64,000 nt of DNA, taken from Escherichia coli. Its GTDB lineage: Bacteria > Pseudomonadota > Gammaproteobacteria > Enterobacterales > Enterobacteriaceae. The notes under the pieces were generated by a model that was not told the origin of the DNA, made no database searches, and saw nothing but the letters and a program-made list of their open reading frames with translations. The position numbers and the translations under genes are program-made. Below, piece after piece: positions 3,558 through 52,688 of the stretch. The first letter of the stretch is position 1; every line of letters starts with the position of its first letter. Where the stretch lies: NCBI RefSeq assembly GCF_017348835.2, contig NZ_CP071375.1; one strand, given 5' to 3'.

Positions 3558-4020
3558 TTACGGTTGAATAAGATCGTCAATAAACACCGCACCGTCAACG
3601 GTACGCAACCAGCGTGGCGCTTTCAGTTTTGCCGCAAAGAACCAGACCAGTTCACAAAGCAGCCCCGTCAGGGGTTGTTCCATTTTAGATCCCTGCGCCT
3701 GTTCCGTCAGGAGCTGGAGTAATACCTCGCAATATTCACACAATTGCTCAGGATCCAGGTCAAAGTGCGGAAATGAGGCAGGCAGGTCGTCGAGTGTCAG
3801 GCTGTCTACCAGATGGGGTGGAATAGGATCGTTCAGCGTGGGAGACAGAATGGCGATACAGGCGCGAAGTCGTCCGAACAACGCCATTTTCAGCGCCGGA
3901 TCGTGACACTCTATAAGGGTTCAGCGAAGCGATCGCAGTGATCGGCCAGGTCTGTGAAATCGGTGGCAGAACTGAAAGGAATGGACAATAAATCATAATC
4001 AGGGGTGAGGACTGTAGCCA
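3558..4020 (-). pseudogene. Hypothetical gene of unknown function, apparently frameshifted
   Basis: ATG at 4020 preceded by a GGAGG Shine-Dalgarno; 36 codons then stop at 3910-3912. A second frame continues as the 109-aa ORF 3558..3887. No family recognised. Confidence 0.3.
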
Positions 4021-4097
4021 TAAGGCAACCTCCGATAAGTAGGCGTTAAAACCACCACCGAAGAGACCAATCTTACGGGTGGTGGAACCGGGCGGAG

Positions 4098-6932: not shown

Positions 6933-6947
6933 ATAACGAGGGAATAT

Positions 6948-7538: not shown

Positions 7539-7559
7539 TATATATGTATCACGCGGTGC

Positions 7560-9656: not shown

Positions 9657-10221
9657 TAATAAAAAATTAGTGTTTGCTGTAGTGAACAGTGATTTTAATG
9701 ATATAGAAAGAACTATCCATAATGGATTGAACTGGCCGAGTGAACCAATAAGTAGTCGAAAACTTATTGAGGAAATACACTTGACTATTCAACGTGGTGG
9801 GGTCTTGCCGTCCGAGGGGGTTTTCTATTATCCGTGTATAAATGACAGCAAATTAATTTTTCTGTCTAATTTATCTGATGGATGGGACTCTTTACTTTAT
9901 TGCCTGTCAAAACAGAATAAATCTAGCTATCTACTGTTTAGGTTATTGATGGGGGAATACCCTCTGATGGAAATGAGTTTTATAGAGTCAGGGAAAACAA
10001 TACGTTTAATTAGAGTGATAAAAGAAAATAAATGGATTTTTTATGAGGTCGGGGAACCGTTATGGTTTGAAGAAAAGGAAAACTATTCAAAAAGAAGAAT
10101 CGCAGATAGAATTACTTATGATCTCTTACTCTCCTATTCACGGAAAAATGGCATTGACTTTGATTCCCCCGCATTTTTTAAAACGGAAAAAGAATCACTA
10201 TGGTTGAATGAAATACGATAG
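9637..10221 (+). CDS. Putative immunity protein for CT3 (194 aa)
   Basis: Overlaps the CT3 stop by 20 bp; AT-rich. Confidence 0.5.
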   Translation: MATQPSDNKKLVFAVVNSDFNDIERTIHNGLNWPSEPISSRKLIEEIHLTIQRGGVLPSEGVFYYPCINDSKLIFLSNLSDGWDSLLYCLSKQNKSSYLLFRLLMGEYPLMEMSFIESGKTIRLIRVIKENKWIFYEVGEPLWFEEKENYSKRRIADRITYDLLLSYSRKNGIDFDSPAFFKTEKESLWLNEIR

Positions 10222-10234
10222 TTTATTTAAATAA

Positions 10235-10272
10235 AAAGCCGGAAAAGAAATTAAACTTTCCCGGCTTTTTTA
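10235..10272. terminator. Hairpin plus T-tract, likely bidirectional intrinsic terminator
   Basis: aaagccgg ... ccggcttttttatt between the immunity-3 stop and the convergent SymE-like gene. Confidence 0.5.
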
Positions 10273-10276
10273 TTAT

Positions 10277-10457
10277 TTAACTCTCGTTCAGCACACTAAA
10301 CATCCCGTCCCGCATCCCCTTAACTGCCTGTTTAACCTGATAAAGCTCCCTGCGCAGTTCCTGTACTTCGTTGTTATCCGCAAGCAGGATCAGACATCCC
10401 TCCGAGATCTTCACGGTAACGCCCGTGCCGATCTCAAATCCCGCTTCTCTCAGCCAT
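10277..10457 (-). pseudogene. SymE-like toxin gene, 5'-truncated by the adjacent rhs fragment boundary
   Basis: C-terminal 60 aa (AKWLREAGFEIGTGVTVKISEGCLILLADNNEVQELRRELYQVKQAVKGMRDGMFSVLNES) resemble SymE ([28 protein letters not shown]). Similarity ends where rhs core sequence starts at ~10458. Confidence 0.55.
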
Positions 10458-12335: not shown

Positions 12336-12346
12336 TGTGAGGTTTT

Positions 12347-12610
12347 ATGAATATCCGAAATCAATATAATGAAGCCTTAAATAAATTAGAAGTTGATGTT
12401 AATGATGGTTTGAGAGATTTAATAAACATATATTGTGTGGCTATTGATTCTTTTGAAAATGATATCGTTGACTCGATTGCTTTATACGTGATTGATATGG
12501 GAAATAAAGATACTTGTCGATATCTACAAGAAGTCTTATCAGAGAATGAAGATCCTTATTTAGTAAAAGAATTTAATGCATGGATAAAAGAAATTAAGAA
12601 AAAATATTAA
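12347..12610 (+). CDS. Putative immunity protein for CT4 (87 aa)
   Basis: AT-rich ORF 11 bp after the CT4 stop. Confidence 0.5.
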   Translation: MNIRNQYNEALNKLEVDVNDGLRDLINIYCVAIDSFENDIVDSIALYVIDMGNKDTCRYLQEVLSENEDPYLVKEFNAWIKEIKKKY

Positions 12611-12615
12611 AATAA

Positions 12616-12655
12616 AAGCCGGGAAGGTTATAAAATCTTCCCGGCTTTTTATTTT
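12616..12655. terminator. Intrinsic terminator hairpin (9-bp stem gccgggaag/cttcccggc) with T-tract
   Basis: Perfect inverted repeat followed by tttttattttt. Confidence 0.6.
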
Positions 12656-12900
12656 TAATTCTCGTTCAGTACACTAAACATCCCGTCCCGCATCCCCTTA
12701 ACCGCCTGTTTAACCTGATAAAGTTCCCTGCGCAGTTCCTGTACTTCGTTGTTATCGGCAAGCAGGATCAGGCAGCCTTCCGAGATCTTCACAGTAACGC
12801 CCGTGCCGATCGAAAATTCCGCTTCTCTCAGCCATTTGGCGCTGATTTTGATCACCGGCGTGTCGCTGCTGTTGGGCAGATATCCTACGGTACAACGGCG
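12655..12900 (-). CDS. SymE-like toxin homologue (AbrB-fold type I toxin family), possibly defective at its start
   Basis: 66-aa track ORF begins at a GTG; the SymE-like frame extends further upstream (TPEVTISKTQRRCTVGY...) with no in-frame ATG, while an ATG sits in another frame. Confidence 0.5.
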   Translation of the reverse strand, partial: RRCTVGYLPNSSDTPVIKISAKWLREAEFSIGTGVTVKISEGCLILLADNNEVQELRRELYQVKQAVKGMRDGMFSVLNEN

Positions 12901-13001
12901 TTGTGTTTTGGAAATGGTGACTTCTGGCGTAATATCATGTTTAAGTTAGGGGCTTTCGTAGTCATACCCCGACTCTCCCCGGCCCTAAACACAACCCCCA
13001 C

Positions 13002-13781
13002 TCACCACAACCTAAACTCATCCGCATCCTGCCATGCCGGAAACTTTTCTCTATATTCCCGCAATGCCATCATCGACAGCTCCGCATCAATGCGCGTTGC
13101 CTGATGCGCGTCGGCAGTAGCGATAATCTCGCCTTGTGGATTAATCACCCGGCTGTCACCGCGATAATGGCAGCCGTTGCCATCGCTGCCGACGCGATTG
13201 CATCCCGCCACATACGCCTGATTCTCAATCGCGCGGGCCGTCAGCAATGCCTGCCAGTGCAGAGAGCGCGGAGCAGGCCAGTTGGCGACGTACAGGGCGA
13301 GGTCATAATCGTTGAGATTGCGCGACCACACAGGAAAACGTAAGTCGTAGCACACCAGCGGCAAAATACGCCAGCCGCGCCATTCCACAATCACTCGCGC
13401 ATTGCCCGCTTTATAATGCAGATGCTCATCAGCCATTCGGAACAGATGACGCTTATCATAAAAATGTACCGTGCCGCCCGGCTCAACCAGCAAAAAGCGG
13501 TTAACTGAACCAGACTCCGTTTGTAATGCAACACTGCCTGCAATCAGCGCATTGCACTGCTGCGCTTTAGCTGTCATCCAGTTCACTACGTCATCTTGCG
13601 CTAGCGACGAAGCTGCCGCTTCCATGGCAAAGCCGCTGGTAAACATCTCCGGTAGAACGATCACATCGCGCCCGGTAATACCTTCCAGTTGACGATCAAA
13701 ATGACGCAGGTTGGCAGGACCATCCATCCACACCAGTGGTTGCTGCAAAAGCGTAATCTTCAAACCAGGCACGGTGTACAA
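13002..13781 (-). CDS. yafV: Omega-amidase / nitrilase-family hydrolase YafV
   Basis: 259-aa product ...PGLKITLLQQPLVWMDGPANLRHF... matches YafV. Confidence 0.9.
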   Translation of the reverse strand: MYTVPGLKITLLQQPLVWMDGPANLRHFDRQLEGITGRDVIVLPEMFTSGFAMEAAASSLAQDDVVNWMTAKAQQCNALIAGSVALQTESGSVNRFLLVEPGGTVHFYDKRHLFRMADEHLHYKAGNARVIVEWRGWRILPLVCYDLRFPVWSRNLNDYDLALYVANWPAPRSLHWQALLTARAIENQAYVAGCNRVGSDGNGCHYRGDSRVINPQGEIIATADAHQATRIDAELSMMALREYREKFPAWQDADEFRLW

Positions 13782-13925
13782 CTCCTTTATGCGAAGGGTT
13801 TTATAACTTTAACACCTTATCAGGCAGTTGCCTTAGCGCAGAATAAATTGATAACAAATGCTGATATTGGAAATATCTGATTTGCAAATTATCGTGTTAT
13901 CGCCAGGCTTTAGGAGGTTAATAAC

Positions 13926-14399
13926 ATGGGCAGGATAAGCTCGGGAGGAATGATGTTTAAGGCAATAACGACAGTCGCCGCTCTGGTCATCGCCACCAGT
14001 GCAATGGCGCAGGATGATTTAACCATTAGTAGCCTTGCAAAGGGCGAAACCACCAAAGCTGCGTTTAATCAGATGGTGCAAGGGCATAAGCTGCCTGCAT
14101 GGGTGATGAAAGGCGGTACTTATACTCCCGCACAAACCGTAACGTTGGGAGATGAGACGTATCAGGTGATGAGCGCGTGCAAACCGCATGACTGTGGCTC
14201 GCAACGTATCGCTGTGATGTGGTCCGAGAAATCTAATCAGATGACGGGGCTGTTCTCGACTATTGATGAGAAAACGTCGCAAGAGAAACTCACCTGGTTG
14301 AATGTGAACGATGCGCTTTCGATTGATGGTAAAACGGTGCTGTTCGCGGCGTTGACCGGCAGCCTGGAAAACCATCCGGATGGCTTTAATTTTAAATAA
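13926..14399 (+). CDS. ivy: Inhibitor of vertebrate lysozyme
   Basis: 157-aa product with signal peptide and the CKPHDCG motif. Confidence 0.9.
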   Translation: MGRISSGGMMFKAITTVAALVIATSAMAQDDLTISSLAKGETTKAAFNQMVQGHKLPAWVMKGGTYTPAQTVTLGDETYQVMSACKPHDCGSQRIAVMWSEKSNQMTGLFSTIDEKTSQEKLTWLNVNDALSIDGKTVLFAALTGSLENHPDGFNFK

Positions 14400-14413
14400 T
14401 TAGCGGATAAAGA

Positions 14414-14440
14414 AACGGAGCCTTTCGGCTCCGTTATTCA
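14414..14440. terminator. Bidirectional terminator hairpin between ivy and fadE
   Basis: acggagcctttcggctccgtt. Confidence 0.5.
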
Positions 14441-14441
14441 A

Positions 14442-16886
14442 TTACGCGGCTTCAACTTTCCGCACTTTCTCCGGCAACTTTACCGGCTTCGTCGCCAGCT
14501 CTTCCGGATCAAAGTCATCAACGTTAATACTGCGCAGACGGCTTTCTTCCGCTTTCACCAAAATGGCGGCTTCATCTTTATCAATCAGCCCCTTCGCCAG
14601 CGCGTTGTGCGCCAGTTCATCCAGACGGGTAAATGGCAGATTTTTACCCAGCTCTTTACAGATCCGCTGATGAATCGGGTCGGCGGCAATCACATCCACC
14701 AACGCCTCTTCCAGTAAACCAACCGGATTATGCTCGCTCGGCGTCAGGTACTGACCGCGACCAATACGTGAGCGAGTGGCGTTCGGCACTTGTAAAATCT
14801 TCGCCACTTTATGATCCAGCTTGTCAGACGGTGCCAGATAATGACGTCCGGTCGGGAAGATCACTACATTCAGCAGCCCGGCAACCACGCGGTTCGGGAA
14901 GTTTTGCAGTAAATCGTCCATCGCCTGTTCAGCCTTATACAGCGCATCCTGTACGCCCCAGTGCACCAGCGGCAGATCGGCTTCATTACGGCCTTCGTCG
15001 TCATAACGCTTCAGAACGGCGGAGGCGAGGTAGAGCTGGCTTAAAATATCCCCCAGACGTGCCGAGATACGCTCACGACGTTTCAGGCTGCCGCCCAGCA
15101 CTGCCATCGAGACATCAGAAAGCAGGGCGAGGTTGGCGCTCAGGCGGTTAAGATGCTGATAGTAGCGTTTAGTGGCATCGCCGGTTGGCGTGCTGCTGGT
15201 TAAACCGCGCGTCAGGCCCAGCCAGAAGCTGCGAACTTTGTTGCTACCGACGTGACCGATATGTTTGAACAACAGTTTATCGAACGCGTTAACGTCATTG
15301 TTCTTCGCTGCTTCCATCTCTTCCAGCACGTACGGATGGCAACGAATCGCCCCCTGGCCGAAGATCATCATGCTGCGGGTCAGAATGTTAGCCCCTTCAA
15401 CGGTGATGGCAATCGGTGCGCCCTGGTAAGCACGCGCCAGGAAGTTGCTTTGCCCGAGCATAATGCCTTTGCCACCAGTGATATCCATCGCATCAATAAT
15501 CGACTGCTGCCCGCGGTGGGTACAGTGATACTTAACGATAGCCGACAGCACGGCAGGTTTTTCGCCGAGCATAATGCCGTAGGTAATCAGCGATGCCGCA
15601 GCATCCATTACATAAGCGTTCCCGGCAATACGCGCCAGCGGCTCTTCAATCCCTTCCATCTTACCAATAGAAATTTTGAACTGACGACGAATGTGCGCAT
15701 ACGCACCCGTTGCCAGCGCTACTGATTTCACGCCGCCGGTTGAGTTGGAAGGCAAGGTGATGCCGCGGCCTACCGAGAGGCACTCCACCAGCATCCGCCA
15801 GCCTTGCCCGGCCATTTTTGGTCCGCCGATGATGTAATCGATCGGTACGAAGACATCTTTACCGCGCGTCGGTCCGTTCTGGAAAGGTACGTTAAGCGGG
15901 AAGTGGCGACGACCAATTTCCACGCCCGGCGTGGTGGTCGGGATCAGCGCACAGGTAATACCTAAATCTTCTGCGCCACCCAGCAGCTTTTCCGGGTCGG
16001 AGAGTTTAAACGCCAGCCCAAGCACAGTCGCAATCGGTGCCAGCGTAATGTAGCGTTTGTTCCAGGTCAGACGCATCCCCAGCACCTGCTGGCCCTGCCA
16101 TTCGCCCATGCAGACAATCCCGGTGTCCGGAATCGCGCCCGCATCGGAACCCGCTTCCGGGCTGGTTAGTGCAAAGCAAGGGATTTCCTGACCACGCGCC
16201 AGACGCGGCAGATAGTGATCTTTCTGCTCGTCAGTGCCGTAATGTTGCAGCAGCTCGCCCGGGCCTAATGAGTTCGGCACGCCGACGGTAATCGCCAGGA
16301 TCCCGCTCACGCCGGAGAGTTTTTGCAGCACGCGAGACTGGGCATAAGCCGAGAACTCCAGCCCGCCGTACTCTTTTTTGATGATCATCGCGAAGAAACG
16401 ATGCTCTTTAAGGTACGCCCACAACTCCGGCGGCAGATCCGCCAGTTCATGGGTGATCTGGAAATCATTCGCCATCCGGCAGGCTTCTTCTACCGGGCCG
16501 TCGAGAAACGCTTGCTCTTCAGCCGTCAGGCGCGGCTGCGGATAGTTATGCAGCTTTTTCCAGTCCGGCTTGCCCTGGAACAAGTCGCCCTCCCACCAGG
16601 TGGTGCCCGCATCAATCGCTTCTTTCTCAGTGCGCGACATCGGCGGCATCACCTTACGGAAACCACGAAATACCGGCGCGGAAATCATCGACTTACGCAT
16701 AGGCGCAAAGTTAAATGGCACGAGGATAATGGCCAGAGGCACCAGTACCCACGCCGACCACAGACCAGCAACGCCGAGGGCGGCTGTCCAGGCGAGCAAA
16801 ATCAGACTGCTGATAAATAAGCTCACGCGGTGATAGAACAACGCGCCGAGCAGGACAACCGTAGCGAGAATACTCAAAATCATCAT
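14442..16886 (-). CDS. fadE: Acyl-CoA dehydrogenase FadE
   Basis: Track ORF 14442..16964; start placed at the internal [13 protein letters not shown]. Confidence 0.9.
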
Positions 16887-17704: not shown

Positions 17705-17850
<146 letters not shown>

Positions 17851-21832: not shown

Positions 21833-23572
21833 TCAACTCAACGCCCCCATAATCTTCAACTCCAGCTCATCCGGCACTTCGTTATACGACAGCACATGCA
21901 GCCCCGGCGCAAACAACCTTGCGTAGCGCGCTAGCAAAGGGCGCAGCTGCGGCGGCACCAGCAGCACCGGGTCTTTCCCCGCCGCTTTCATCTGCTCCTT
22001 CACCTGCGGCATCGTGCTCTGGAACTGGTTGAGCATATTCGGGTCGACCGGCACGCTGTCGAGCATCACTTTGCCGCCCTGTTGCGCCTGATTCACCACG
22101 TTGGTCAGCAGATTTTCCAGCTCATTATTCAGCGTATACACCGTCAGCTCCTGCTTGCGAACGAAAGGATGAGTAATGCTGCGCCGCAGCGCCAGGCGCA
22201 CATCGGCCGCCAGCAGAATATGATCTTTGGTCACCGCGCTACTGGCGACCAGCACGGTGGCGATGGTGACGATGTCGCGCAGGGAAACGCCTTCGGTCAG
22301 CAGCGCACGGTACACTTTCAGCAACTGGCTGTAATTCAGCGCCGCGCTCAAATCCTCCGCCAGGCGCGGTGCCATTGACGACAAACGGTTATGCAACTGC
22401 GTGATGTCATCATAGTTAAACAAATCAGGAATATAACTGCGCACAATCTTATTCACATGGGTGGCAATCACGCTGGCGCTGTCGATCACCTGATACCCCA
22501 TATTCAGCGCCTTCGCTTTCTGCGCAGGCTGGATCCAGGTGACTGGCATCCCATACGCCGGGTCGTTCCCCAGCACGCCGTCTATCTCGCCGTAGGTTTC
22601 GCTGGAGGGCAGGGCCATCAGTTTATCCGCCGGAATATCCGCTTCATCAGCCTTAATGCCGTTGATGAAAATGGCGTACTGGCTGGGCTTGAGGCGGAAA
22701 TTTTCCCTAATGCGGATCTCCGGCAGCAGCACGCCGTTGCCGTCGGATATCACCTGCCGCACGCCGCGGATCCGCTGGGTGAGCGGGTTACCCTGTGCTT
22801 TATCGACCAGCGCTACTAGCTTGTAGCCAAGGCTTAAGCTGATGGGTTCGATCAGCGGAATGGTTTCCCAACTGACCTGTTGCTCGCTGGTTTCAGTGAT
22901 GGTGCGGGTCAGCGTTTCGAGGCTTTTCTCCTCCGCCTCTGCCGCCTGCGGCTGTTTGCTCATTCGCCAGCCGGTAAAGCCAAGCAGGGCGCTGAACATC
23001 AGGAACGGCAGGTGCGGCATCCCCGGCACCACTGCCAGCACAAACATAATTCCGGTAGCGGTGTAGAGCACCGACGGGCTTGCCAGCAGTTGGTTACGCA
23101 CGTCATGGGCGATATCGCCGTTGTCGCTGACGCGGGTGACGATAATCGCCGCTGCGGTGGAGAGCAGCAGGGAAGGGATCTGCGCCACCAGCCCATCGCC
23201 GATGGTCATCAGCACATATTGCTGGAAGGCGGCATCGGCGCTCAGGTTGTATTTGAAGATCCTGATACAGACGCCGCCGATCAGGTTGATCGCCAGAATC
23301 ATCATCCCGGCGATGGCATCCCCGCGCACAAACTTCGATGCCCCGTCCATCGCGCCGTAGAAATCGGCTTCGCTGGCGACATCTTTACGCCGGGTTTGCG
23401 CCTGCGCCTGGTTGATCAATCCGGCGTTAAGGTCGGCGTCAATCGCCATCTGCTTGCCGGGCATCGCGTCAAGGGTAAAGCGGGCAGAAACCTCGGAAAT
23501 ACGCTCGGCCCCTTTGGTGACGACAATAAAGTTGATTGTCAACAGCGTCAGTAAATCCGAGCGTGAAAGCAT
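21833..23572 (-). pseudogene. lfhA: FlhA-family export protein remnant lacking its N-terminal membrane domain (Flag-2 remnant)
   Basis: 579-aa product homologous to the FlhA central and C-terminal regions; first ~110 aa absent. Confidence 0.8.
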
Positions 23573-24302
23573 TATCGCCGCGCTGCACGGGCAGTCGATT
23601 TTTAACGGTGGTGGGCTGTCGCCGTTAAATAAAATCAGCCCGTCTCATCCGCCAAAACCTGCCACCGTGGCGGTGCCGGAAGAGACGGAGAAAAAAGCGC
23701 GTGATGTGAATGAGAAAACGGCGCTGCTGAAGAAGAAATCCGCCACCGAGCTTGGCGAGTTGGCAACCAGTATCAACACCATTGCCCGTGATGCGCATAT
23801 GGAAGCGAATCTGGAGATGGAGATTGTTCCCCAGGGATTACGCGTGCTGATTAAAGACGACCAGAATCGCAATATGTTCGAACGCGGCAGCGCGAAGATT
23901 ATGCCGTTCTTTAAAACGCTGCTGGTGGAGCTAGCGCCAGTGTTCGACTCGCTCGATAACAAAATTATTATTACCGGGCATACCGATGCGATGGCCTACA
24001 AAAACAATATCTACAACAACTGGAACCTTTCGGGCGATCGCGCGCTTTCAGCTCGTCGGGTGCTGGAAGAGGCCGGAATGCCGGAAGATAAAGTGATGCA
24101 GGTAAGCGCAATGGCGGACCAGATGCTGCTGGATGCCAAAAATCCGCAAAGCGCGGGCAATCGGCGTATTGAGATTATGGTGCTGACCAAAAGTGCGTCC
24201 GATACGCTGTATCAATACTTTGGTCAGCATGGGGATAAAGTGGTGCAGCCACTGGTGCAAAAGCTGGATAAGCAGCAGGTGCTTTCGCAGCGAACGCGTT
24301 AA
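23412..24302 (+). pseudogene. lafU: MotB/OmpA-like protein remnant (Flag-2 remnant); true start uncertain, ORF overlaps lfhA
   Basis: C-terminal OmpA-like domain (IIITGHTDAMAYKNNIYNNWNLSGDRALSARRVLEE); no N-terminal transmembrane segment. Confidence 0.65.
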
Positions 24303-24338
24303 ATGCTGAATCTTTACGCATTTCTCAAACCCTGAAAT

Positions 24339-24358
24339 CACTGTATACTTTACCAGTG
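24339..24358. promoter_or_regulatory. LexA box of the dinB promoter
   Basis: CACTGTATACTTTACCAGTG 15 bp upstream of the dinB ATG. Confidence 0.7.
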
Positions 24359-26400: not shown

Positions 26401-26828
26401 CAAGACGTCGCGGTAACAGTGCTGGAAACAGAAACAGGTCGTTACTCTGACACCCTGCGTTCAGCGCTGGTTTCTCTGAATGGCGACAACGCATGGGCAT
26501 TAAGCGAAAGCTGGTATGGCACTATTCAGTGGATTTGTCGGAGTCCGTATCGCCCACATCATGGGCGTAAAAACTGGTTTCTGGGCATTGGGCGTTTTAC
26601 TGCTGATGAGCAGGAACAATCCGACGCGGTCCGTTATGAGACGCTGCGTTCGTCGGGGCCGGGCGGTCAACATGTCAATAAAACCGATTCGGCGGTGCGC
26701 GCCACGCATCTGGCTACCTGGATTAGCGTGAAGGTTCAGTCAGAGCGCAGCCAGCATGCCAACAAGCGGCTGGCACGATTGCTGATTGAACCGCCCCGGG
26801 TTTCCTGGAGAGTGTTTTATCTGTGAAC

Positions 26829-27716
26829 TCAGGCTGCCAGATCATTATTTCCGATGGAAGCATAATAAGCTTTTTCTGCTTCTGCCGGAGGAATATGGCC
26901 CAGCCTTTCCAGCAATCGTCGATTGTTATACCAGTCCACCCACGTTAGTGTGGCCAGTTCCACTTCTGTCCGGTTTTTCCAGCTCTTACGGTGTATTACC
27001 TCCGCTTTGTAAAGACCATTGATGCTCTCCGCCATCGCGTTGTCATACGAGTCGCCAGTACTCCCTGTTGATGCCAGTAATCCGGCTTCCTTAAGCCGCT
27101 GCGTGTAGGCCAGCGATACATACTGAGAACCTTTATCACTGTGATGGATTGTGCCGGACGGCCGACGGGCCCACAACGCCTGCTCCAGTGCATCCAGCAC
27201 GAATGTTGTTTCCATGGATGATGAGACCTGCCATCCCACGATGTATCCGGCGAACACATCAATGATGAACGCCACATAAACGAAGCCCTGCCATGTGCTT
27301 ACCCAGGTAAAATCAGCCACCCACAACTGGTCTGGACGTTCTGCCACGAACTGACGGTTTACGCGGTCGCATGCGGCAACGGCTTTCCGGCTGACGGTAG
27401 TGCGGACCTTTTTACCCCGGAGAACACCGGCAAGTCCCATAACTGCCATGAGACGTGCCACAGTGCATCTGGCCACTCTGATACCTTCCCGTAACAACTG
27501 ACGCCAGACTTTACGCACACCGTATACCTGGTGATTTTCATCGTATACGCGCTGTATCTCTTTCTTCAGCCAGTCATCGTGCTGCGCACGGGCACTGCGT
27601 TTATCCGGATGATGTCGCTGTTGCTGACAATGGTAATACGTTGACGGGGCAATATGCAGTTCGCTGCATACCGGTCCGACCCCGTACTGCTCACGCAGCT
27701 TATCCAGCAGTGGCAT
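26829..27716 (-). CDS. IS629-like transposase OrfB (DDE catalytic domain)
   Basis: 295 aa; start overlaps the orfA stop, consistent with IS3-type frameshifting. Confidence 0.85.
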   Translation of the reverse strand: MPLLDKLREQYGVGPVCSELHIAPSTYYHCQQQRHHPDKRSARAQHDDWLKKEIQRVYDENHQVYGVRKVWRQLLREGIRVARCTVARLMAVMGLAGVLRGKKVRTTVSRKAVAACDRVNRQFVAERPDQLWVADFTWVSTWQGFVYVAFIIDVFAGYIVGWQVSSSMETTFVLDALEQALWARRPSGTIHHSDKGSQYVSLAYTQRLKEAGLLASTGSTGDSYDNAMAESINGLYKAEVIHRKSWKNRTEVELATLTWVDWYNNRRLLERLGHIPPAEAEKAYYASIGNNDLAA

Positions 27717-28042
27717 TATTTTTTCCAGAGGCGGTCGAACTCCGCCTTCGCAAAATAAGCGGAAGCCTGGCGAAGGATATCGTTACTGCGGCGCAGTTCA
27801 CGATTTTCACGTTCCAGCTCTTTCAGACGCTGACGTTCAGCGGTGGTGAGTCCACCATCACCACTCCCGGTATCCCGCTCATGCTGGCGAACCCAGACAC
27901 GCAGAGTCTCCGGCGTACAGCCAATCTTTGGGGCAATGGAACAAATTGCCGCCCACTGTGAGTCATATTCATCCTGACTTTCCAGAACCATACGAATCGC
28001 CCGCTGACGGACTTCGGGGGAAAAACGAGTATTTTTAGTCAT
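27716..28042 (-). CDS. IS629-like transposase OrfA
   Basis: 108 aa, [26 protein letters not shown]..., helix-turn-helix. Confidence 0.85.
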
Positions 28043-28288
28043 CCTGTTTACCTCTTTCTCAGGGAGTTTAGTCTCCAGGATTTCCGGGGCGGTTCAGATT
28101 GCCTGGAAGCTGGAGCAACAGCAACAGGAAAATAGCGCAGTGCTGAAATCGCAGCGGCGAATGTTCCATCACCAGATTGAACGTGGCAACCCGCGACGAA
28201 CGTTTACAGGGATGGCTTTTATCGAAGGATAATGAAGGATGAAACTGCCGGAAGGCGATTAAACGCCATCCGGCAGCAAATCAAATAA

Positions 28289-36124: not shown

Positions 36125-36200
36125 GCCGATATAGCTCAGTTGGTAGAGCAGCGCATTCGTAATGCGAAGGTCGTAGGTTCGACTCCTATTATCGGCACCA
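36125..36200 (+). tRNA. thrW: tRNA-Thr (CGU)
   Basis: GCCGATATAGCTCAGTTGGTAGAGCAGCGCATTCGTAATGCGAAGGTCGTAGGTTCGACTCCTATTATCGGCACCA; cloverleaf with CGT anticodon and encoded CCA. Confidence 0.95.
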
Positions 36201-36214
36201 TTAAAATCAATAAG

Positions 36215-37378
36215 TTACACATCATTAGTACCTTCCTTATTTTTTGACTGGGACAAATTTGGGACCGATGGGTTCAGGATCGAGTCTATTTGCCGTGCGT
36301 GTTCGGTAAGGTGATTAGGTGCAAGGTGAGCATATCGACGAACCATTTCGATAGACTCCCAGCCTCCCATTTCCTGTAAAACTGACAACGGGACTCCGGC
36401 TTGAACCAGCCAACTTGCCCAGGTGTGTCTCAAGTCGTGAAATCTGAAATCATCAATACCAGCCCGTCTCAGCGCCGCTTTCCAGGCTGTGTTTGCGTCA
36501 TACCGCATCTTCCTTACTGTTGGCGCTTTCGTTCCGTCTGGTTTGGTACAGCTTTCCTTGTACACAAATACCCAACGGTGATGATTCCCGATTTGTTTTT
36601 TCAAAACGCGACATGCAGTATCATTCAGCGCAACGCCAATTGCGCGGTTTGATTTACTCTCTTCCGGGTTTATCCATGCCACCCGGCGCTGCATGTCTAT
36701 TTGTTGCCATTCAAGGTTGATGATGTTCGAGCGTCTTAAGCCTGTTGCCAGTGCAAATTCAACAACAGACTTTAATGGCTCCGGACATTCATCAATCAGC
36801 CTTTGTGCTTCATGGGGCTCCAGCCAGCGGATCCGTTTATTCTTTGGTTGAGGCACTTTAATAATTGGTGCCTTATCCAGCATTTTCCATTCACGCTCTG
36901 CGGCTCTTAGTAGGGCCTTTATAAATGAAAGATGCGTAGCCTTCGTTGCAACGGACGCTGGTTTTGGCGTGTATTCTGGAACAGGTTTCCCTTTTTTTCT
37001 GCATGCTTCTGCCCTGAGTCTCCAGTTTTCCTCATGACGCCGGTTCGTCATTTTCTGCATTGCTGAATAAATTTTTGATTCAGTAATGTCTCTTAGTTGC
37101 ATTCCTGCGAAATGTTGAAGCCAGAATCCGATCCGGCTTTTGTCATCGTCCAGTGATTTTTTATGTGCTTTCTCTTCAAGCCACCTGACACACGCTTCCT
37201 CGAACGTTATATCAGGTATTTCACCAAGTTTGCTGACCCGCCATGCTTCAGCCTTTAGCTTGTCATGGAGTTCTGTCGCCTGCCTTTTGTCCTTTGTTCC
37301 AAGAGACTGTTTAAATCTTTTACCGTTCGGCAATGTGAAACTGGCGTACCATATTTCACCTCTGCGGAAGAGTGACAT
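36215..37378 (-). CDS. int: Phage integrase (tyrosine recombinase, P22 Int-like)
   Basis: 387 aa, [46 protein letters not shown]...; C-terminal HDLRHT...Y catalytic region. Confidence 0.9.
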
Positions 37379-42599: not shown

Positions 42600-44417
42600 G
42601 TGAATATGGCAGTAAAAATTTCAGGTGTACTGAAAGACGGCACAGGAAAACCGGTACAGAACTGCACAATCCAGCTGAAAGCAAAACGTAACAGTACCAC
42701 GGTGGTGGTGAACACGCTGGCATCTGAAAATCCGGATGAAAAGGGGATAGTACAGCTCAGCAGTGCGACCAACAGCACTTCCGAGTCACTGGCGGCAACG
42801 CCAAAAGCCGTTAAGGCCGCGTATGACCTGGCTAACGGGAAATACACCGCACAGGATGCAACGACAGCACAGAAAGGGATAATCCAGCTAAGCAGCGCGA
42901 CCAACAGCACGTCTGAAACGCTGGCGGCAACGCCAAAGGCAGTAAAAGCAGCCAATGACAATGCTGAGAAACGTCTGCAGAAAGATCAGAACGGTGCGGA
43001 TATCCCTGGCAAAGACACCTTTACGAAAAATATTGGTGCCTGCCGTGCCTTCGGTGGGTCAGTAAGCACAACAACAGGAAACTGGACGACTGCACAGTTT
43101 ATCGAGTGGCTGGATTCTCAGGGAGCATTTAACCATCCATACTGGATGTGCAAGGGTTCCTGGTCTTATGGCAATAATAAAATCATTACTGATACTGGCT
43201 GCGGTAATATTCATCTCGCCGGAGCTGTCATTGAAGTAATGGGGATAAAGTCAGCGATGACGATCCGCATTACCACTCCGACCACATCCAGCGGTGGCGG
43301 AACAACCAACGCCCAGTTTACCTATATTAATCACGGAACAGATTATTCACCTGGCTGGCGAAGGGACTATAACTCCAGAAATAAGCCAACGGCATCAGAG
43401 ATCGGGGCGCTACCGTCAGGTGGAACAGCAGTATCATCAGTTAATCTGGCTTCAAAAGGTCGGGTAGCCGCGCTGACAGACAATACGCAGGGGGCAGCAG
43501 GTCTTGAGTTATACGAGGTGTATAACAACGGATATCCAACAGCGTATGGAAATATCATTCACCTGAAAGGGATGACAGCCGTTGGCGAAGGTGAGTTACT
43601 CATCGGCTGGAGTGGTACAAGTGGTGCTCATGCTCCGGCATTTATTCGTTCACGACGGGATACGACCGACGCAAACTGGTCGCCGTGGGCGCAGCTTTAC
43701 ACCTCGGCTCATCCTCCTGCAGAGTTTTATCCAGTCGGTGCACCAATCCCGTGGCCATCAGATACCGTTCCGTCTGGTTATGCCCTGATGCAGGGGCAGA
43801 CTTTTGACAAATCTGCTTACCCGAAACTTGCAGCCGCTTATCCGTCAGGCGTGATCCCTGATATGCGTGGCTGGACGATTAAGGGCAAGCCCGCCAGTGG
43901 TCGTGCCGTATTGTCTCAGGAACAGGATGGCATTAAATCGCATACCCACAGCGCCAGCGCATCCAGTACGGATTTGGGGACGAAAACCACATCGTCGTTT
44001 GATTACAGCACTAAATCCACGAATAACACTGGTGCGCATACCCATAGTTTAAGTGGCAGCACGAATGCAGCTGGTAATCACAGCCATAGAGATGGCCGTC
44101 GATTTAACCCCAGTGTTTTTAAAGATACTTATCAATATGGTTATACAAGCTCAGGTCAAAATACTTGGGGTGTACAAGGCTCAGTAGGTATGTCTACGGG
44201 GTGGTTAGCTAATACCAGTACAGATGGTAATCATAGCCACTCACTGTCCGGCACAGCAGCATCTGCAGGTGCACACGCGCATACTGTCGGTATTGGTGCT
44301 CATACGCACTCCGTTGCGATTGGTTCACATGGACACACCATCACCGTTAACGCTGCTGGTAACGCGGAAAACACCGTCAAAAACATCGCATTTAACTATA
44401 TTGTGAGGCTTGCATAA
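42600..44417 (+). CDS. stf: Side tail fibre protein Stf (shorter than lambda Stf)
   Basis: [28 protein letters not shown]... N-terminus and the conserved C-terminal His-rich repeats ([27 protein letters not shown]...[18 protein letters not shown]). Confidence 0.85.
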
Positions 44418-45001
44418 TGGCATTCAGAATGAGTGAACAACCACGGACCATAAAAATTTATAATCTGCTGGCCGGAACTAATGAATTTATTGGTGAAGGT
44501 GACGCATATATTCCGCCTCATACAGGTCTGCCAGCAAACAGTACCGATATTGCACCGCCAGATATTCCGGCTGGCTTTGTGGCTGTTTTCAACAGTGATG
44601 AGGCATCGTGGCATCTCGTTGAAGATCATCGGGGAAAAACCGTCTATGACGTGGCTTCCGGCGACGCGTTATTTATTTCTGAACTTGGCTCGTTACCGGA
44701 AAATGTCACCTGGTTATCGCCGGAAGGGGAATATCAGAAGTGGAACGGCACAGCCTGGGTGAAGGATACGGAAGCAGAAAAACTGTTCCGGATCCGGGAG
44801 GCGGAAGAAACAAAAAACAACCTGATGCAGGTAGCCAGTGAGCATATTGCGCCACTTCAGGATGCTGCAGATCTGGAAATCGCAACGGAGGAAGAAAACT
44901 CGTTGCTGGAAGCCTGGAAAAAGTATCGGGTGTTGCTGAACCGTGTTAATACAACAACTGCACCTGATATTGAGTGGCCTACGAACCCTGTCAGGGAGTA
45001 A
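44417..45001 (+). CDS. tfa: Tail fibre assembly protein Tfa
   Basis: 194-aa product; ATG overlaps the stf stop. Confidence 0.85.
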
Positions 45002-45362
45002 TCATTGGGATTATGCCGCAGAAACGTTGTATGCAATAACGTTTTGCGGTTGGCTGGTGAACTTCCGATAGTGCGGGTGTTGAATGATTTCCAGCTGCTA
45101 CCGATTTTACATATTTTTGCCTGAGAGGATTTGAACCGCCTCCACAGACTCTACATCACAGATAACCACTGTCACGAGGACTGTTAGTGCTGTGAGTTCA
45201 ACGGGGCGATGTACGCTACCTTTAATCAAGAGGGAGAGGTACGTTGCTAAGATGAGTTTATATTCATCAACTAAGTGCAGATCAGCGAATAACTAAAACT
45301 TGGCTGTCTGAACCGCCCCGGAAATCCTGGAGACTAAACTCCCTGAGAAAGAGGTAAACAGG

Positions 45363-45689
45363 ATGACTAAAAATACTCGTTTTTCCCCCGAAGTCCGTCA
45401 GCGGGCGATTCGTATGGTTCTGGAAAGTCAGGATGAATATGACTCACAGTGGGCGGCAATTTGTTCCATTGCCCCAAAGATTGGCTGTACGCCGGAGACT
45501 CTGCGTGTCTGGGTTCGCCAGCATGAGCGGGATACCGGGAGTGGTGATGGTGGACTCACCACCGCTGAACGTCAGCGTCTGAAAGAGCTGGAACGTGAAA
45601 ATCGTGAACTGCGCCGCAGTAACGATATCCTTCGCCAGGCTTCCGCTTATTTTGCGAAGGCGGAGTTCGACCGCCTCTGGAAAAAATAA
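45363..45689 (+). CDS. IS629-like transposase OrfA
   Basis: Product identical to the copy at 27716..28042. Confidence 0.85.
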
Positions 45690-46576
45690 TGCCACTGCTG
45701 GATAAGCTGCGTGAGCAGTACGGGGTCGGACCGGTATGCAGCGAACTGCATATTGCCCCGTCAACGTATTACCATTGTCAGCAACAGCGACATCATCCGG
45801 ATAAACGCAGTGCCCGTGCGCAGCACGATGACTGGCTGAAGAAAGAGATACAGCGCGTATACGATGAAAATCACCAGGTATACGGTGTGCGTAAAGTCTG
45901 GCGTCAGTTGTTACGGGAAGGTATCAGAGTGGCCAGATGCACTGTGGCACGTCTCATGGCAGTTATGGGACTTGCCGGTGTTCTCCGGGGTAAAAAGGTC
46001 CGCACTACCGTCAGCCGGAAAGCCGTTGCCGCATGCGACCGCGTAAACCGTCAGTTCGTGGCAGAACGTCCAGACCAGTTGTGGGTGGCTGATTTTACCT
46101 GGGTAAGCACATGGCAGGGCTTCGTTTATGTGGCGTTCATCATTGATGTGTTCGCCGGATACATCGTGGGATGGCAGGTCTCATCATCCATGGAAACAAC
46201 ATTCGTGCTGGATGCACTGGAGCAGGCGTTGTGGGCCCGTCGGCCGTCCGGCACAATCCATCACAGTGATAAAGGTTCTCAGTATGTATCGCTGGCCTAC
46301 ACGCAGCGGCTTAAGGAAGCCGGATTACTGGCATCAACAGGGAGTACTGGCGACTCGTATGACAACGCGATGGCGGAGAGCATCAATGGTCTTTACAAAG
46401 CGGAGGTAATACACCGTAAGAGCTGGAAAAACCGGACAGAAGTGGAACTGGCCACACTAACGTGGGTGGACTGGTATAACAATCGACGATTGCTGGAAAG
46501 GCTGGGCCATATTCCTCCGGCAGAAGCAGAAAAAGCTTATTATGCTTCCATCGGAAATAATGATCTGGCAGCCTGA
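45689..46576 (+). CDS. IS629-like transposase OrfB
   Basis: Product identical to the copy at 26829..27716. Confidence 0.85.
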   Translation: MPLLDKLREQYGVGPVCSELHIAPSTYYHCQQQRHHPDKRSARAQHDDWLKKEIQRVYDENHQVYGVRKVWRQLLREGIRVARCTVARLMAVMGLAGVLRGKKVRTTVSRKAVAACDRVNRQFVAERPDQLWVADFTWVSTWQGFVYVAFIIDVFAGYIVGWQVSSSMETTFVLDALEQALWARRPSGTIHHSDKGSQYVSLAYTQRLKEAGLLASTGSTGDSYDNAMAESINGLYKAEVIHRKSWKNRTEVELATLTWVDWYNNRRLLERLGHIPPAEAEKAYYASIGNNDLAA

Positions 46577-46618
46577 GTTCACAGATAAAACACTCTCCAG
46601 GAAACCCGGGGCGGTTCA

Positions 46619-51090: not shown

Positions 51091-51335
51091 TGCATTGAAT
51101 GATAAAATGGCGCAAATACAGCGCCATTTTTACAGGTTAAAAACATTGCTTTTTATATTCTGATTCAGATAGTCAGTGAGTATATAGTGCTACTTCAGGA
51201 TGATGTAGATCCGAAGAACACTACAGAAGAGAGGCATTGTTGCTGGCAAATACAAGAAGTTTCGGGTTTTGTTGTCCCTGAAAACGAAGCCCCGCTATTA
51301 TCGCTGGCGGGGCAGTGCAATTAATTATTGTATGT

Positions 51336-51665
51336 TTATAACGGTGTCAGCCCGTATTTAGCCCTTGCACGATTGCAAGCCTCATTGACGACTCCGTTCT
51401 CACCAGACATGGCGAATTCTCTGCATGTGGACGATCGATTTTTATATATCGTGCAGCAGGCATTTTTGCCCGGGGTTCCTGCAAGGGCAATACATCGGGG
51501 GTTTTTCTGATTAGTTCCGCTCATGCATCGGTGAAAAGGGGATATTTGTTCAGTGAGCCTGGCGGGAATGGTACCACCAGCATCGTCGGCTTCGGCCCAG
51601 TAAAAAGAGACGCGGAAAAATGCACAACAGGCACCACACGTCATGCATGGATTCAGATTGCTCAT
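51336..51665 (-). CDS. ykgJ: Cys-rich ferredoxin-like protein YkgJ
   Basis: [28 protein letters not shown]... Confidence 0.8.
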
Positions 51666-51977
51666 AATTCACCAGTACAGCTATAAATCGTAAAGAGAAC
51701 TGCGGTACGTCGTATGCAGGGACGTATCGCGGTTGGCTGGTGTACTTTCGATAGTGTGAGTATTGAATGATTTCCAGCCGTTACCGATTTTACGTCCTAA
51801 TTAGTGAAGAAACCACTCGTTAGCAGGCCGCCTGGTACCTTTCCGTGTCTCCTGAACACTGTGGTGTGCATATGAGAAAGCCTATCGTTACAGGTGATAT
51901 TGACGATCGCTTCCACATCATTTAAACGATTTTTGAGTCTCTGAGGTGGAATTCTTCCCTCGACCGATGGATAAGTA

Positions 51978-52688
51978 TCAGTCCGCCGAAGGGGGCTTAG
52001 CCGGACAGGAATCGCTAATCTTAATGAATTTGTCGTTATAGACCAGATAGTGATTCCCCGGCTGACGTAACTCAGGCTGATGAACCACGTCTCCCGGACG
52101 TAGATACCAGGCATCGCCTTCCTCTTCGGTCGAATCACATCCTGGTTTAATCAGTAGCTTAAACCACGTGTTGCCGGTGTTACTTACCGTTCCTGTCACC
52201 TTGTCGAAGGACCATTTAAACTGAACCTGACGTGGTCGTACTACCAGAATGGTATCCATCACCACCACCGGCTCCGTGCTAACCTCACCGCCGGTAGGGC
52301 TGCGTTTTGTCAGGTTACGAGTGGGGACCTCGCGAAATGAGACCCGGTAGTAGCGCTCGCGGTTATCCTGTGGCCCATGATAGTAAAATTTAAAATACTC
52401 GCTCTCACCAGCCTGCAACGCCAGCTGGCGGGGGGCGAAAAGTAGTTCACCATCCACCGGTCGGGTGCGCAATTCACTGCTGCCCGGGCTATCAATAGCA
52501 CTGATGGCAATACGGTATATCCGTGCGCTTTTGTTGTTATTCACTACACGTTTGCTGACAAAGTCAGTCTCGGACGGCAGTGAAAAAGTCAGATTGCCGA
52601 CCGAAATCGCCTGTGTCAAAGGTGCCGCCAGCATACAGACCACTGTCAGCAGGGCCTTAGTTAATGTTACGCCACGTCGCCTGAACAT
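51978..52688 (-). CDS. ecpE: E. coli common pilus chaperone EcpE (YagV)
   Basis: Start placed at [27 protein letters not shown]. Confidence 0.8.

What the first reader, a model, noticed from the sequence alone, without database searches (positions are those of the whole stretch)
51729..51794. Second copy of the ~66-bp repeat, between ykgJ and ecpE
Partner of the 45046-45113 copy; it lies in otherwise conserved backbone intergenic DNA upstream of the ecp operon end.
Basis: seen in the sequence. Interest (0 to 1): 0.35.

Follow-up and report, generated by a model that had tools for sequence, protein, structure and literature searches.

The report
Fossil prophage dinI terminator module
The repeat is real but ordinary: it is the non-coding tail (a conserved 60-base core plus a terminator hairpin) that follows a DNA-damage-inducible dinI-like gene at the end of lambda-type prophages, and the copy beside ecpE is an ancient leftover of such a prophage that now sits where RNAs running out of the ecp pilus operon end.

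Summary
Chance expectation is below 1e-16.

The repeat is not an att site or an insertion boundary. It is a module found in phage lambda itself and in more than 100 lambdoid prophage contigs. It reads on the window's minus strand as: stop codon of an 82-aa SOS-regulated DinI-like gene, then a 60-nt conserved core, then a covarying hairpin, then a U-rich tail.

Copy 1 belongs to a degraded prophage at thrW. Copy 2 is a fossil, flanked by a truncated, frameshifted dinI-like remnant (51801-51958), ykgJ, and a tail-fibre-assembly remnant (Rfam IS009/EcsR2). The whole block is fixed in about 5,000 E. coli genomes.

Published Term-seq places an RNA 3' end 4-5 nt past the hairpin of the K-12 orthologue, on the ecp/ykgJ strand. 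The opposite strand carries CssrB/EcOnc47-type RNAs over the same hairpin.

The core varies far less than linked synonymous sites, in prophages and in the chromosome alike. Its own role is unresolved. This is an unannotated member of a known kind, of modest interest.

The parts
51733..51793 (-). Conserved 60-61-nt core, copy 2 (the finding). Minus-strand sequence: GTAAAATCGGTAACGGCTGGAAATCATTCAATACTCACACTATCGAAAGTACACCAGCCAA.
   Evidence: Among 10 orthologous E. coli loci, 2 of 61 core sites vary, against 29 of 184 in the rest of the intergenic region.
51700..51732 (-). Hairpin, copy 2 (CCGCGATACGTC-loop-GACGTACCGCAG). The left 26 nt of the 87-nt repeat fall in it.
   Evidence: Folds. Covariation in the family: 9 of 12 pairs show compensatory changes, and 0 of 500 shuffles reach the observed values.
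51666..51699 (-). U-rich tail (UUCUCUUUACGAUUU) and spacer up to the ykgJ start codon. The RNA 3' end predicted by orthology with K-12 is at 51695-51696.
   Evidence: K-12 Term-seq 3' end at 304212/304213 (-), which is 4-5 nt past the hairpin (PMC7815308 supplements 1 and 3; mapping).
51801..51958 (-). Remnant of a prophage dinI-like gene. It aligns to nt 71-249 of the phage coding sequence, carries a 22-nt internal deletion, and lacks the start codon and the SOS promoter. It begins 19 nt after the ecpE stop codon.
   Evidence: The intact phage gene and its two LexA boxes are shown.
51978..52688 (-). ecpE, the last gene of the ecp operon.
51336..51665 (-). ykgJ. Homologues, intact or decayed, lie immediately 3' of the same module in prophage contigs, so it is probably old prophage cargo.
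51096..51293 (+). Remnant of the 3' part of a tail-fibre-assembly gene. It corresponds to Rfam IS009 and the published sRNA EcsR2.
   Evidence: 169 bits; the intact tfa at 44760-44958 scores 226 bits. family D9. PMC4350180.
45050..45110 (-). Core, copy 1.
45016..45049 (-). Hairpin, copy 1. It lies 14 nt after the tfa stop codon and has no U tail on the minus strand.
44417..45001 (+). Intact tail-fibre-assembly gene of the young, degraded lambdoid prophage.
45111..45301 (.). Prophage DNA to the right of copy 1. The first ~80 nt are homologous to lambda (the lambda match 24161-24339 corresponds to window 45015-45190). It is cut off by the IS element.
45302..46618 (+). IS3-family element with an ALIL frameshift pseudoknot. 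It truncates the prophage and paoC. An identical inverted copy lies at 26787-28103.
36125..37378 (.). tRNA-Thr (thrW, 36125-36200, + strand) and the adjacent integrase gene (36215-37378, - strand). This is the integration end of the young prophage.

Best explanation
The repeat is the 3' non-coding module that lambdoid prophages carry behind an SOS-regulated dinI-like cargo gene. That gene is transcribed towards the tail-fibre genes, on the window's minus strand. The module has three parts: a sequence-conserved 60-nt core, a hairpin kept by compensatory changes, and usually a U-rich tail. The hairpin marks the boundary between the two converging transcription units and ends RNAs there. Copy 1 belongs to a recent, degraded prophage at thrW. 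Copy 2 is a fossil of an older prophage end: tfa remnant, ykgJ, module, dinI remnant. This fossil became fixed next to ecpE and now supplies the RNA 3' end between the ecp operon and ykgJ. Shown: the homology, the genomic context, hairpin covariation, reduced variation in the core, and a mapped RNA 3' end in K-12. Inferred: that the hairpin terminates transcription rather than only protecting a processed end; that the RNA ending there comes from the ecp operon; and that the core acts at the RNA level.
For: The module is present in lambda between ea31 and ea47, and in 189 phage records. It was found in 107 places across the window and the fetched loci, almost all of them IMG/VR viral contigs. 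On its own strand, a DinI-like gene lies 5' of it in 60 of 94 loci with enough flank. In a sample chosen by the DinI-like protein alone, 76 of 80 genes are followed by the core 6-7 nt after the stop codon. The phage gene has a TTGACA hexamer plus two CTGT-N8-ACAG LexA boxes upstream. The 3' neighbours are convergent tfa (27), convergent pin invertase (22), or same-strand ykgJ-like genes (13). Hairpin: 9 of 12 pairs show changes on both sides, 47 such cells, and 0 of 500 shuffles reach this. At least 5 U in the next 8 nt occurs in 45 of 74 distinct copies on this strand, whereas the other strand always continues YUGGCUGG. K-12 Term-seq shows a 3' end at 304212/304213 (-), 4-5 nt past the hairpin, in all three growth conditions, with Rho score 1.44 (not significant). 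No 3' end is recorded closer to ecpE. Fossil status of copy 2: the dinI remnant; tfa remnant/IS009; prophages carrying the order dinI-like, module, ykgJ-like. Constraint on the core: nucleotide diversity (pi) is 0.0125 in its central 31 nt against 0.093 at dinI third codon positions. In 10 chromosomal orthologues, 2 of 61 core sites vary against 29 of 184 elsewhere in the intergenic region (p = 0.013).
Against: The K-12 intrinsic-terminator score is 2.78, below the 3.0 cut-off used by the authors. The loop is 9 nt, and the simple terminator scan did not flag the site. Copy 1 and other copies that abut tfa lack a U tail. The MFE fold of this window's copy 2 prefers an alternative pairing over the hairpin. 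Wobble pairs are about equally frequent on the two strands (40 against 35). RNAs on the opposite strand also involve the hairpin: the Rfam CssrB model ends in it, and the EHEC Hfq peak EcOnc47 lies over it after coordinate conversion. A terminator role does not explain why the core sequence is conserved. The 5' end and promoter of the K-12 RNA are unknown. Compensatory-looking changes in a DNA palindrome can also arise by template switching.
Confidence: 0.7

Rival explanations
1. The core plus hairpin is the body of an uncharacterised small regulatory RNA. It would be either cut from the 3' UTR of dinI-like mRNAs after SOS induction or, at the chromosomal copy, made from ecp transcripts. The conserved core would serve as the pairing or protein-binding region, and the hairpin plus U tail as an Hfq-type 3' module.
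For: The core is much less variable than linked synonymous sites, both in prophages and in the chromosome. The layout is stem-loop, then terminator hairpin, then U tail. A discrete 3' end is recorded in K-12 although overall coverage of the locus is low. No ORF is conserved.
Against: No 5' end is known. No Rfam family matches the core. ykgJ and ecpE do not appear in the interaction tables of the EPEC RIL-seq or E. coli Hfq-CLASH supplements that could be searched, although some of those files were truncated when stored. The core stem shows no compensatory change. The one Hfq peak found at a prophage copy is on the other strand.
Confidence: 0.2
2. The element acts only at the DNA level, as a shared 'linker' at which lambdoid phages exchange cargo genes by homologous or palindrome-mediated recombination. 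In this view its conservation reflects frequent exchange, not RNA function.
For: Similarity ends sharply on both sides while the flanks vary. Hairpin copies bracket inserted genes: lambda 22551-22608 and 24170-24205 lie around ea47, and locus L043 has two hairpins around a tfa fragment. The hairpin diverges fast while staying paired.
Against: The fossil chromosomal copy, which is no longer part of a phage, still shows a nearly invariant core. It keeps a lineage-specific base (CACAC where prophage copies have CGCAC), which argues against homogenisation by conversion. An RNA 3' end maps at the hairpin.
Confidence: 0.12
3. The functional strand is the tail-fibre (window +) strand. The hairpin would end the late or tail-fibre transcript, or a CssrB-like sRNA, and the 66-bp core would be merely untranscribed spacer beyond it.
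For: In copy 1 the hairpin starts 14 nt after the tfa stop codon. The 3' end of Rfam CssrB, a ~180-nt Shigella RNA seen on Northern blots, aligns to the hairpin on this strand. The Hfq-CRAC peak EcOnc47 in Sakai Sp15 falls on the A-rich tract plus hairpin on this strand, assuming a +128 to +142 coordinate shift. That shift was calibrated on AgvB at 1.94 Mb.
Against: On this strand the hairpin is never followed by a U tract; the sequence is YUGGCUGG in all 74 variants. The K-12 Term-seq sheet that lists the minus-strand 3' end shows no + strand 3' end next to it. This view leaves the conservation of the core unexplained. The CssrB match scores 27 bits against a gathering score of 76.
Confidence: 0.1
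4. The two copies are att-type or target-duplication repeats that bound an inserted or deleted segment. This is the boundary idea suggested by the first reader.
For: The copies are in direct orientation, 6.7 kb apart, and next to mobile DNA.
Against: They are only 85% identical. The same module lies inside lambda, about 3.4 kb from attP by the standard lambda map (own knowledge; module position). It occurs singly in most prophages. The young prophage's att is at thrW, and no thrW-like repeat exists elsewhere in the window. In strain PE164 the two copies are inverted relative to each other and ~23 kb apart.
Confidence: 0.02
5. The element encodes a small protein: the 39-aa ORF on the + strand that PGAP names 'capsid protein' (window 45005-45124).
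For: It is annotated in strain PE164. A comparable 39-aa ORF exists in lambda.
Against: That frame contains stop codons in 22 of 74 distinct copies, including copy 2 and K-12. The ORF would have to read through a hairpin whose arms covary. Substitutions show no three-base periodicity in the copy 1 / copy 2 comparison (read by eye).
Confidence: 0.02

Closest known systems
Intrinsic (Rho-independent) terminators at convergent gene boundaries, including bidirectional ones
   Same: A hairpin maintained by compensatory change. A U-rich tail on the dinI/ecp strand in most copies. A mapped, bicyclomycin-insensitive RNA 3' end 4-5 nt past the hairpin in K-12. A position between converging units (dinI-like gene against tfa or pin).
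   Different: The loop is long (9 nt). The published terminator score is sub-threshold (2.78). There is no U tract on the opposite strand. A 60-nt sequence-conserved core is attached, which a plain terminator does not need.
Rfam RF02799 CssrB (chromosome-encoded Shigella sRNA B; Peng et al. 2011, PMC3071730)
   Same: The last ~40 positions of the CssrB model are this hairpin and its A-rich 5' flank.
   Different: CssrB reads on the opposite strand. It does not include the 66-bp core. It matches the window at only 27 bits (gathering score 76), through the hairpin alone.
Rfam RF02111 IS009 / EcsR2 sRNA (Raghavan et al. 2015, PMC4350180)
   Same: It is another fossil of the same prophage end, a tfa remnant, lying about 400 nt away on the other side of ykgJ. 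It is conserved across E. coli, as this element is.
   Different: The sequence, strand and coordinates are all different (51096-51293). The finding is not part of it.
3'-UTR-derived Hfq-dependent sRNAs (such as CpxQ, DapZ, SroC; named from own knowledge)
   Same: A conserved segment lies immediately upstream of an mRNA's own terminator hairpin and U tail.
   Different: No processing site, chaperone binding or target has been shown.
Moron and mosaic boundary sequences of lambdoid phages (own knowledge: Juhala et al. 2000; Clark et al. 2001)
   Same: Short conserved non-coding joints, often terminators, at which different cargo genes are swapped.
   Different: Here the joint has also been retained, with low variation, in a chromosomal fossil for as long as E. 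coli has diversified.
Prophage-encoded Pas sRNAs of EPEC, especially PasB, whose flanks are rich in IS009 (bioRxiv 10.64898/2026.05.13.724894; PMC8550237)
   Same: Non-coding RNA loci of lambdoid prophages close to tail genes.
   Different: PasB lies between the tail genes I and J. Its probe sequence is absent from the window.

Membership tests
Intrinsic terminator (dinI/ecp strand) | Stable stem-loop conserved as a structure | tested here: met
   12-pair hairpin. 9 pairs show compensatory changes. 89% of cells are paired. 0 of 500 shuffles reach the observed values. Individual folds range from -8 to -22 kcal/mol, with one decayed copy (L014) at -2.0.
Intrinsic terminator (dinI/ecp strand) | U-rich tract directly 3' of the stem | tested here: inconclusive
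   At least 5 U in 8 nt occurs in 45 of 74 distinct copies, including copy 2 (UUCUCUUU). It is absent in copy 1 and in other copies that abut tfa.
Intrinsic terminator (dinI/ecp strand) | RNA 3' end a few nt after the stem in vivo, independent of Rho | tested here: met
   Published Term-seq for the K-12 orthologue shows a 3' end at 304212/304213 (-), 4-5 nt past the hairpin. The Rho score is 1.44 ('No'). The intrinsic-terminator score is 2.78, just under the 3.0 cut-off. This was not measured in the strain of the window.
Rfam RF02799 CssrB | Covariance-model score at or above the gathering threshold (76 bits) over the full model | tested here: not met
   27.3 bits. Only the terminal hairpin aligns, 127 model positions are skipped, and the match is on the opposite strand.
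Rfam RF02111 IS009 / EcsR2 | Match of the finding's coordinates to the model | tested here: not met
   IS009 matches 51096-51293 and 44760-44958, not 51707-51794.
Hfq-type 3'-UTR-derived sRNA | Terminator hairpin plus U tail, preceded by a conserved segment | tested here: met
Hfq-type 3'-UTR-derived sRNA | Evidence of chaperone binding or RNA-RNA chimeras on this strand | tested here: not met
   There are no ykgJ or ecpE entries in the EPEC RIL-seq interaction tables or the Hfq-CLASH supplements that could be searched; some files were truncated. The only Hfq peak located at a prophage copy (EcOnc47) is on the other strand.
Hfq-type 3'-UTR-derived sRNA | Defined 5' end (processing site or internal promoter) giving a discrete small RNA | not testable with these tools
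   The dRNA-seq paper was not held in the library.
Phage att site / direct repeats bounding a mobile unit | Near-identical core at both ends of one element, adjacent to its integrase or target | tested here: not met
   The copies are 85% identical. The integrase and attL are at thrW, and no second thrW-like site exists in the window. The module lies internal to lambda.
Protein-coding gene (PGAP 'capsid protein', 39 aa) | Open frame conserved across copies | tested here: not met
   Stop codons occur in 22 of 74 copies, including copy 2 and K-12.
Pas sRNAs (PasB) | Sequence identity with PasB and its position between tail genes I and J | tested here: not met
   The PasB locus in E2348/69 lies between the tail-assembly gene and gpJ. 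Its probe sequence has no match in the window at up to 3 mismatches.

The most novel reading that the evidence does not exclude
The 60-nt core is the functional part of an undescribed, SOS-inducible RNA family released from the 3' UTR of prophage dinI-like mRNAs. Phage lambda's b region would carry a copy. One copy was domesticated by E. coli at the end of the ecp operon, where it is still under purifying selection and forms an abundant RNA 3' end just upstream of ykgJ. On the other strand, CssrB/EcOnc47-type Hfq-bound RNAs converge on the same hairpin, making the locus a two-strand RNA switch.
Probability: 0.2. Interest if true: 0.6.

Novelty: new member of a known kind. Interest (0 to 1): 0.3.

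Why it matters
The finding explains a short repeat that could be mistaken for an att site or a REP-like element.

It shows that the whole yagU-ecpE interval of the E. coli chromosome is a fossil prophage end: tfa remnant/EcsR2, ykgJ, the module, and a dinI remnant.

It also identifies a well-defined 60-nt non-coding sequence with three notable properties. It is present in lambda and in many Stx and other lambdoid prophages. It is clearly less variable than neutral sites. It coincides with a mapped RNA 3' end.

If the core proves to be an RNA regulator, it would link the SOS response of prophages, and ecp/ykgJ expression in the host, to a new RNA. If not, it remains a tidy example of a phage terminator taken over by a host operon.

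Tried and rejected
- **Rfam.** Searched at gathering and at permissive thresholds on both copies and on a typical prophage copy. Nothing matched the core. The only hit was a sub-threshold CssrB match to the hairpin.
- **tRNA fragment to the right of copy 1** (the GGTTCAAATCC-like motif). ARAGORN finds only thrW.
- **Remnant of a pin-type invertase gene or its enhancer.** This was suggested by a phi458 annotation. Pin genes lie next to the module, not within it.
- **Homology with the 3' UTR of the chromosomal dinI gene.** That 3' UTR interacts with FnrS in EPEC RIL-seq, but it shows no similarity to the module.
- **PasB, AgvB, AsxR and Esr41.** All have different locations and sequences.
- **att remnant of thrW near ecpE**, as a test of tandem accretion of prophages at thrW. 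None was found, so that idea stays an inference.
- **RNAalifold on the MAFFT alignment.** It recovered only 3 pairs because of indels in the hairpin, so a hand-specified structure was counted instead.
- **Promoter-like hexamers in the core.** None were convincing by eye or in the scan.
- **Species-representative genome scan.** The exact core occurs only in Escherichia, plus a few contigs. Two of these are clear E. coli contamination, and the MAG hits were not resolved.
- **Hfq-CLASH and RIL-seq supplements.** No entries for this locus.
- **dRNA-seq TSS paper.** Not held in the library.

Full report
**Observation.** The two copies were read directly. The repeat finder gives one family, 45024-45110 and 51707-51793: 87 nt, 85% identical, ungapped (alignment). 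A binomial estimate puts the chance expectation for the 87-nt match in 64 kb at 1e-22 to 1e-16. Similarity ends abruptly at 51793/45110 and, on the left, at 51707/45024. No third copy exists in the window.

**Setting in the window.**
- The window is collinear with E. coli K-12. The order is: prfH (interrupted by an IS3-family element at 26787-28103), pepD to proBA, thrW (36125-36200), an integrase (36215-37378), a degraded lambdoid prophage ending in lom, stf and tfa (44417-45001), copy 1, about 190 bp, a second identical but inverted IS copy (45302-46618) that truncates paoC, paoBA, yagU, ykgJ (51336-51665, minus strand), copy 2, and ecpE.
- Strain PE164 is 100% identical over the tested pieces, but the segment between the two IS copies is inverted there. 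In that genome the two repeats are about 23 kb apart and in opposite orientation.
- Rfam IS009 matches the 3' part of the intact tfa (226 bits) and also the yagU-ykgJ spacer (169 bits). That spacer is the published sRNA EcsR2 (PMC4350180).

**What the repeat is.**
- BLAST against phages finds it in 189 records, including lambda itself at 24161-24339, between ea31 and ea47. A second copy of only the hairpin lies directly after lambda tfa at 22551-22608.
- An exact 16-mer scan of IMG/VR returned 120 loci. Together with the window and the earlier loci, 107 places carry the element.
- On the window's minus strand the anatomy is: variable 5' flank; a 60-nt core (GTAAAATCGGTAACGGCTGGAAATCATTCAATACTCGCACTATCGAAAGTTCACCAGCCA); a 33-35-nt hairpin (CCGCAG..ACGT, a 9-nt loop, ACGT..CTGCGG); then, in most copies, a U-rich run such as TTTTTCTTTTT or TTTCATTTAT.
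- The gene 5' of it on that strand is an 82-aa DinI-like protein in 60 of 94 loci with enough flank.
- In an independent sample picked by that protein, 76 of 80 genes are followed by the core 6-7 nt after the stop codon.
- The gene has a TTGACA hexamer and two LexA boxes, so it is an SOS gene.
- The 3' neighbours are convergent tfa (27), convergent pin invertase (22), same-strand ykgJ-like genes (13) or, in lambda, ea47.

**Copy 2 is a fossil.**
- To its right, 51801-51958 aligns with nt 71-249 of the phage dinI-like gene. It has a 22-nt internal deletion, and the start codon and SOS promoter are missing. The remnant begins 19 nt after the ecpE stop codon.
- To its left lies ykgJ. Its homologues occupy the same position behind the module in several prophage contigs and, as a pseudogene, in Sakai Sp15. 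Beyond ykgJ is the tfa remnant.
- The interval therefore preserves the order of a lambdoid prophage end: tfa, then ykgJ, module and dinI on the opposite strand.
- The interval is present in 5243 of 5426 complete E. coli genomes.
- The exact core occurs only in Escherichia among 100,044 species representatives. The only other hits are a few contigs from other taxa: two short ones are E. coli backbone sequence (contamination), and the MAG hits were not resolved.
- Both prophage ends point away from thrW. This fits successive integrations at thrW, but no att remnant supports it, so it remains an inference.

**Structure and strand.**
- With a hand-specified structure on the unfitted MAFFT alignment of 74 distinct copies, 9 of 12 hairpin pairs show changes on both sides (47 cells). 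91% of all cells are paired, against 25-62% when the 3' partners are slid. None of 500 shuffles reaches the observed values.
- The only stem predicted in the core (GGCTGG/CCAGCC) shows no compensatory change.
- Wobble pairs do not discriminate the strands (40 against 35). The U tract does: it is present on the dinI strand in 45 of 74 copies, whereas the other strand always continues YUGGCUGG.
- No reading frame is conserved. The PGAP 'capsid protein' frame has stop codons in 22 of 74 copies.

**Experimental anchors from the literature.**
1. Term-seq of E. coli MG1655 (Adams et al. 2021, PMC7815308) lists an 'orphan' 3' end at 304212/304213 on the minus strand in all three growth conditions. 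The printed sequence is the K-12 orthologue of copy 2. The end lies 4-5 nt past the hairpin and 30-31 nt upstream of the ykgJ ATG. The Rho score is 1.44 (not significant) and the intrinsic-terminator score is 2.78. No 3' end is listed nearer to ecpE. By orthology the 3' end in this window would be at 51695-51696.
2. The 3' end of the Rfam CssrB model, a ~180-nt Shigella RNA seen on Northern blots, aligns to the hairpin on the opposite strand. The score is only 27 bits.
3. In EHEC Sakai, prophage Sp15 begins with dinI-like ECs_2939, followed by the module. The Hfq-CRAC peak EcOnc47 (minus strand, old coordinates 2896476-2896522) falls on the A-rich tract plus hairpin, antisense to dinI. This holds after a +128 to +142 shift between genome versions. 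I calibrated that shift on AgvB at 1.94 Mb. The shift at 2.9 Mb was not measured directly, so this assignment is probable rather than certain.

The hairpin therefore looks like the meeting point of two converging RNAs.

**Constraint.**
- In the protein-selected prophage sample, diversity is 0.093 at dinI third codon positions, 0.040 over the whole core and 0.0125 over its central 31 nt. The hairpin region is highly diverse.
- In ten orthologous chromosomal loci (94-97% identical to the window), 2 of 61 core sites vary, and none of the central 31. By comparison, variable sites number 29 of 184 in the rest of the intergenic region (Fisher p = 0.013), 15 of 110 at ykgJ third codon positions (p = 0.033) and 6 of 33 in the hairpin.
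- The chromosomal copies keep a lineage-specific base (CACAC where prophage copies have CGCAC), which argues against homogenisation by prophage copies.

**Interpretation.**
- *Well supported:* the repeat is the 3' module of a prophage dinI-like gene; copy 2 is a fixed fossil of a prophage end; its hairpin coincides with an RNA 3' end on the ecp/ykgJ strand.
- *Inferred:* that the hairpin terminates transcription, and that the RNA comes from the ecp operon. The dinI promoter is deleted, and the stored Term-seq tables contain no entry naming ecpE.
- *Unresolved:* why the core is conserved. The leading ideas are an RNA-level role (3' UTR element or sRNA) or a DNA/protein-binding role.
- *Rejected:* att-site, boundary-repeat and small-protein readings.

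In short, this is an unannotated member of a familiar class, namely phage-derived terminator/3'-UTR modules and domesticated prophage fragments. It has a modestly intriguing conserved core.

Noticed in passing
window 1-14500 (repeats at 1797-12845; Rfam hits at 4075-4263, minus strand): A T6SS VgrG gene followed by four Rhs core-domain genes (an orphan toxin/immunity array) accounts for the 2.6-4.4-kb repeats D1-D5. Rfam C4 antisense RNA and isrK match inside this array, which is unexpected for an Rhs locus.
   Followed up: partly
window 26787-28103 and 45302-46618: Two 100% identical, inverted IS3-family copies (1317 nt, with ALIL pseudoknot). The otherwise identical genome PE164 has the ~17-kb segment between them (prfH' to thrW to prophage) in the opposite orientation. 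This indicates either IS-mediated inversion or an assembly isomer.
   Followed up: partly
lambda NC_001416 22551-22608 and 24170-24205; locus L043 about 8240-8400 and 8603-8640: The hairpin alone is duplicated on both sides of inserted genes: ea47 in lambda, and a tfa fragment in L043. The hairpin therefore looks like a recurrent recombination joint for cargo exchange.
   Followed up: partly
window 45005-45124 (+): PGAP annotates a 39-aa 'capsid protein' (WP_106121378.1) in strain PE164 that reads through the hairpin and core. The frame is broken in 22 of 74 copies, so the annotation is probably spurious.
   Followed up: yes
window 51096-51293 (+); K-12 303835 (+): The tfa remnant between yagU and ykgJ corresponds to Rfam IS009 and sRNA EcsR2. 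Term-seq lists a + strand 3' end at K-12 303835, right after a GC-rich hairpin in this stretch. This would fit the 3' end of that sRNA, but its identity was not checked.
   Followed up: partly
window 51690-51800 (-): In this strain's copy 2 the predicted MFE structure pairs GGACGUA (just 5' of the core) with UACGUCC of the hairpin's 5' arm. This competes with the terminator hairpin. K-12 and prophage copies fold into the two-hairpin form instead.
   Followed up: no
window 17711-17844: REP-like repeats (family D10), with an Rfam naRNA4/CssrE match at 17715-17792.
   Followed up: no
loci L131-L210 (IMG/VR) and Sakai NC_002695.2 2896286-2896534: The prophage DinI-like protein is almost invariant (98-100% identity in the 80 best loci). 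Its gene often sits at the very end of predicted prophages, with a promoter carrying two LexA boxes. It is a very widespread SOS-inducible cargo gene.
   Followed up: partly
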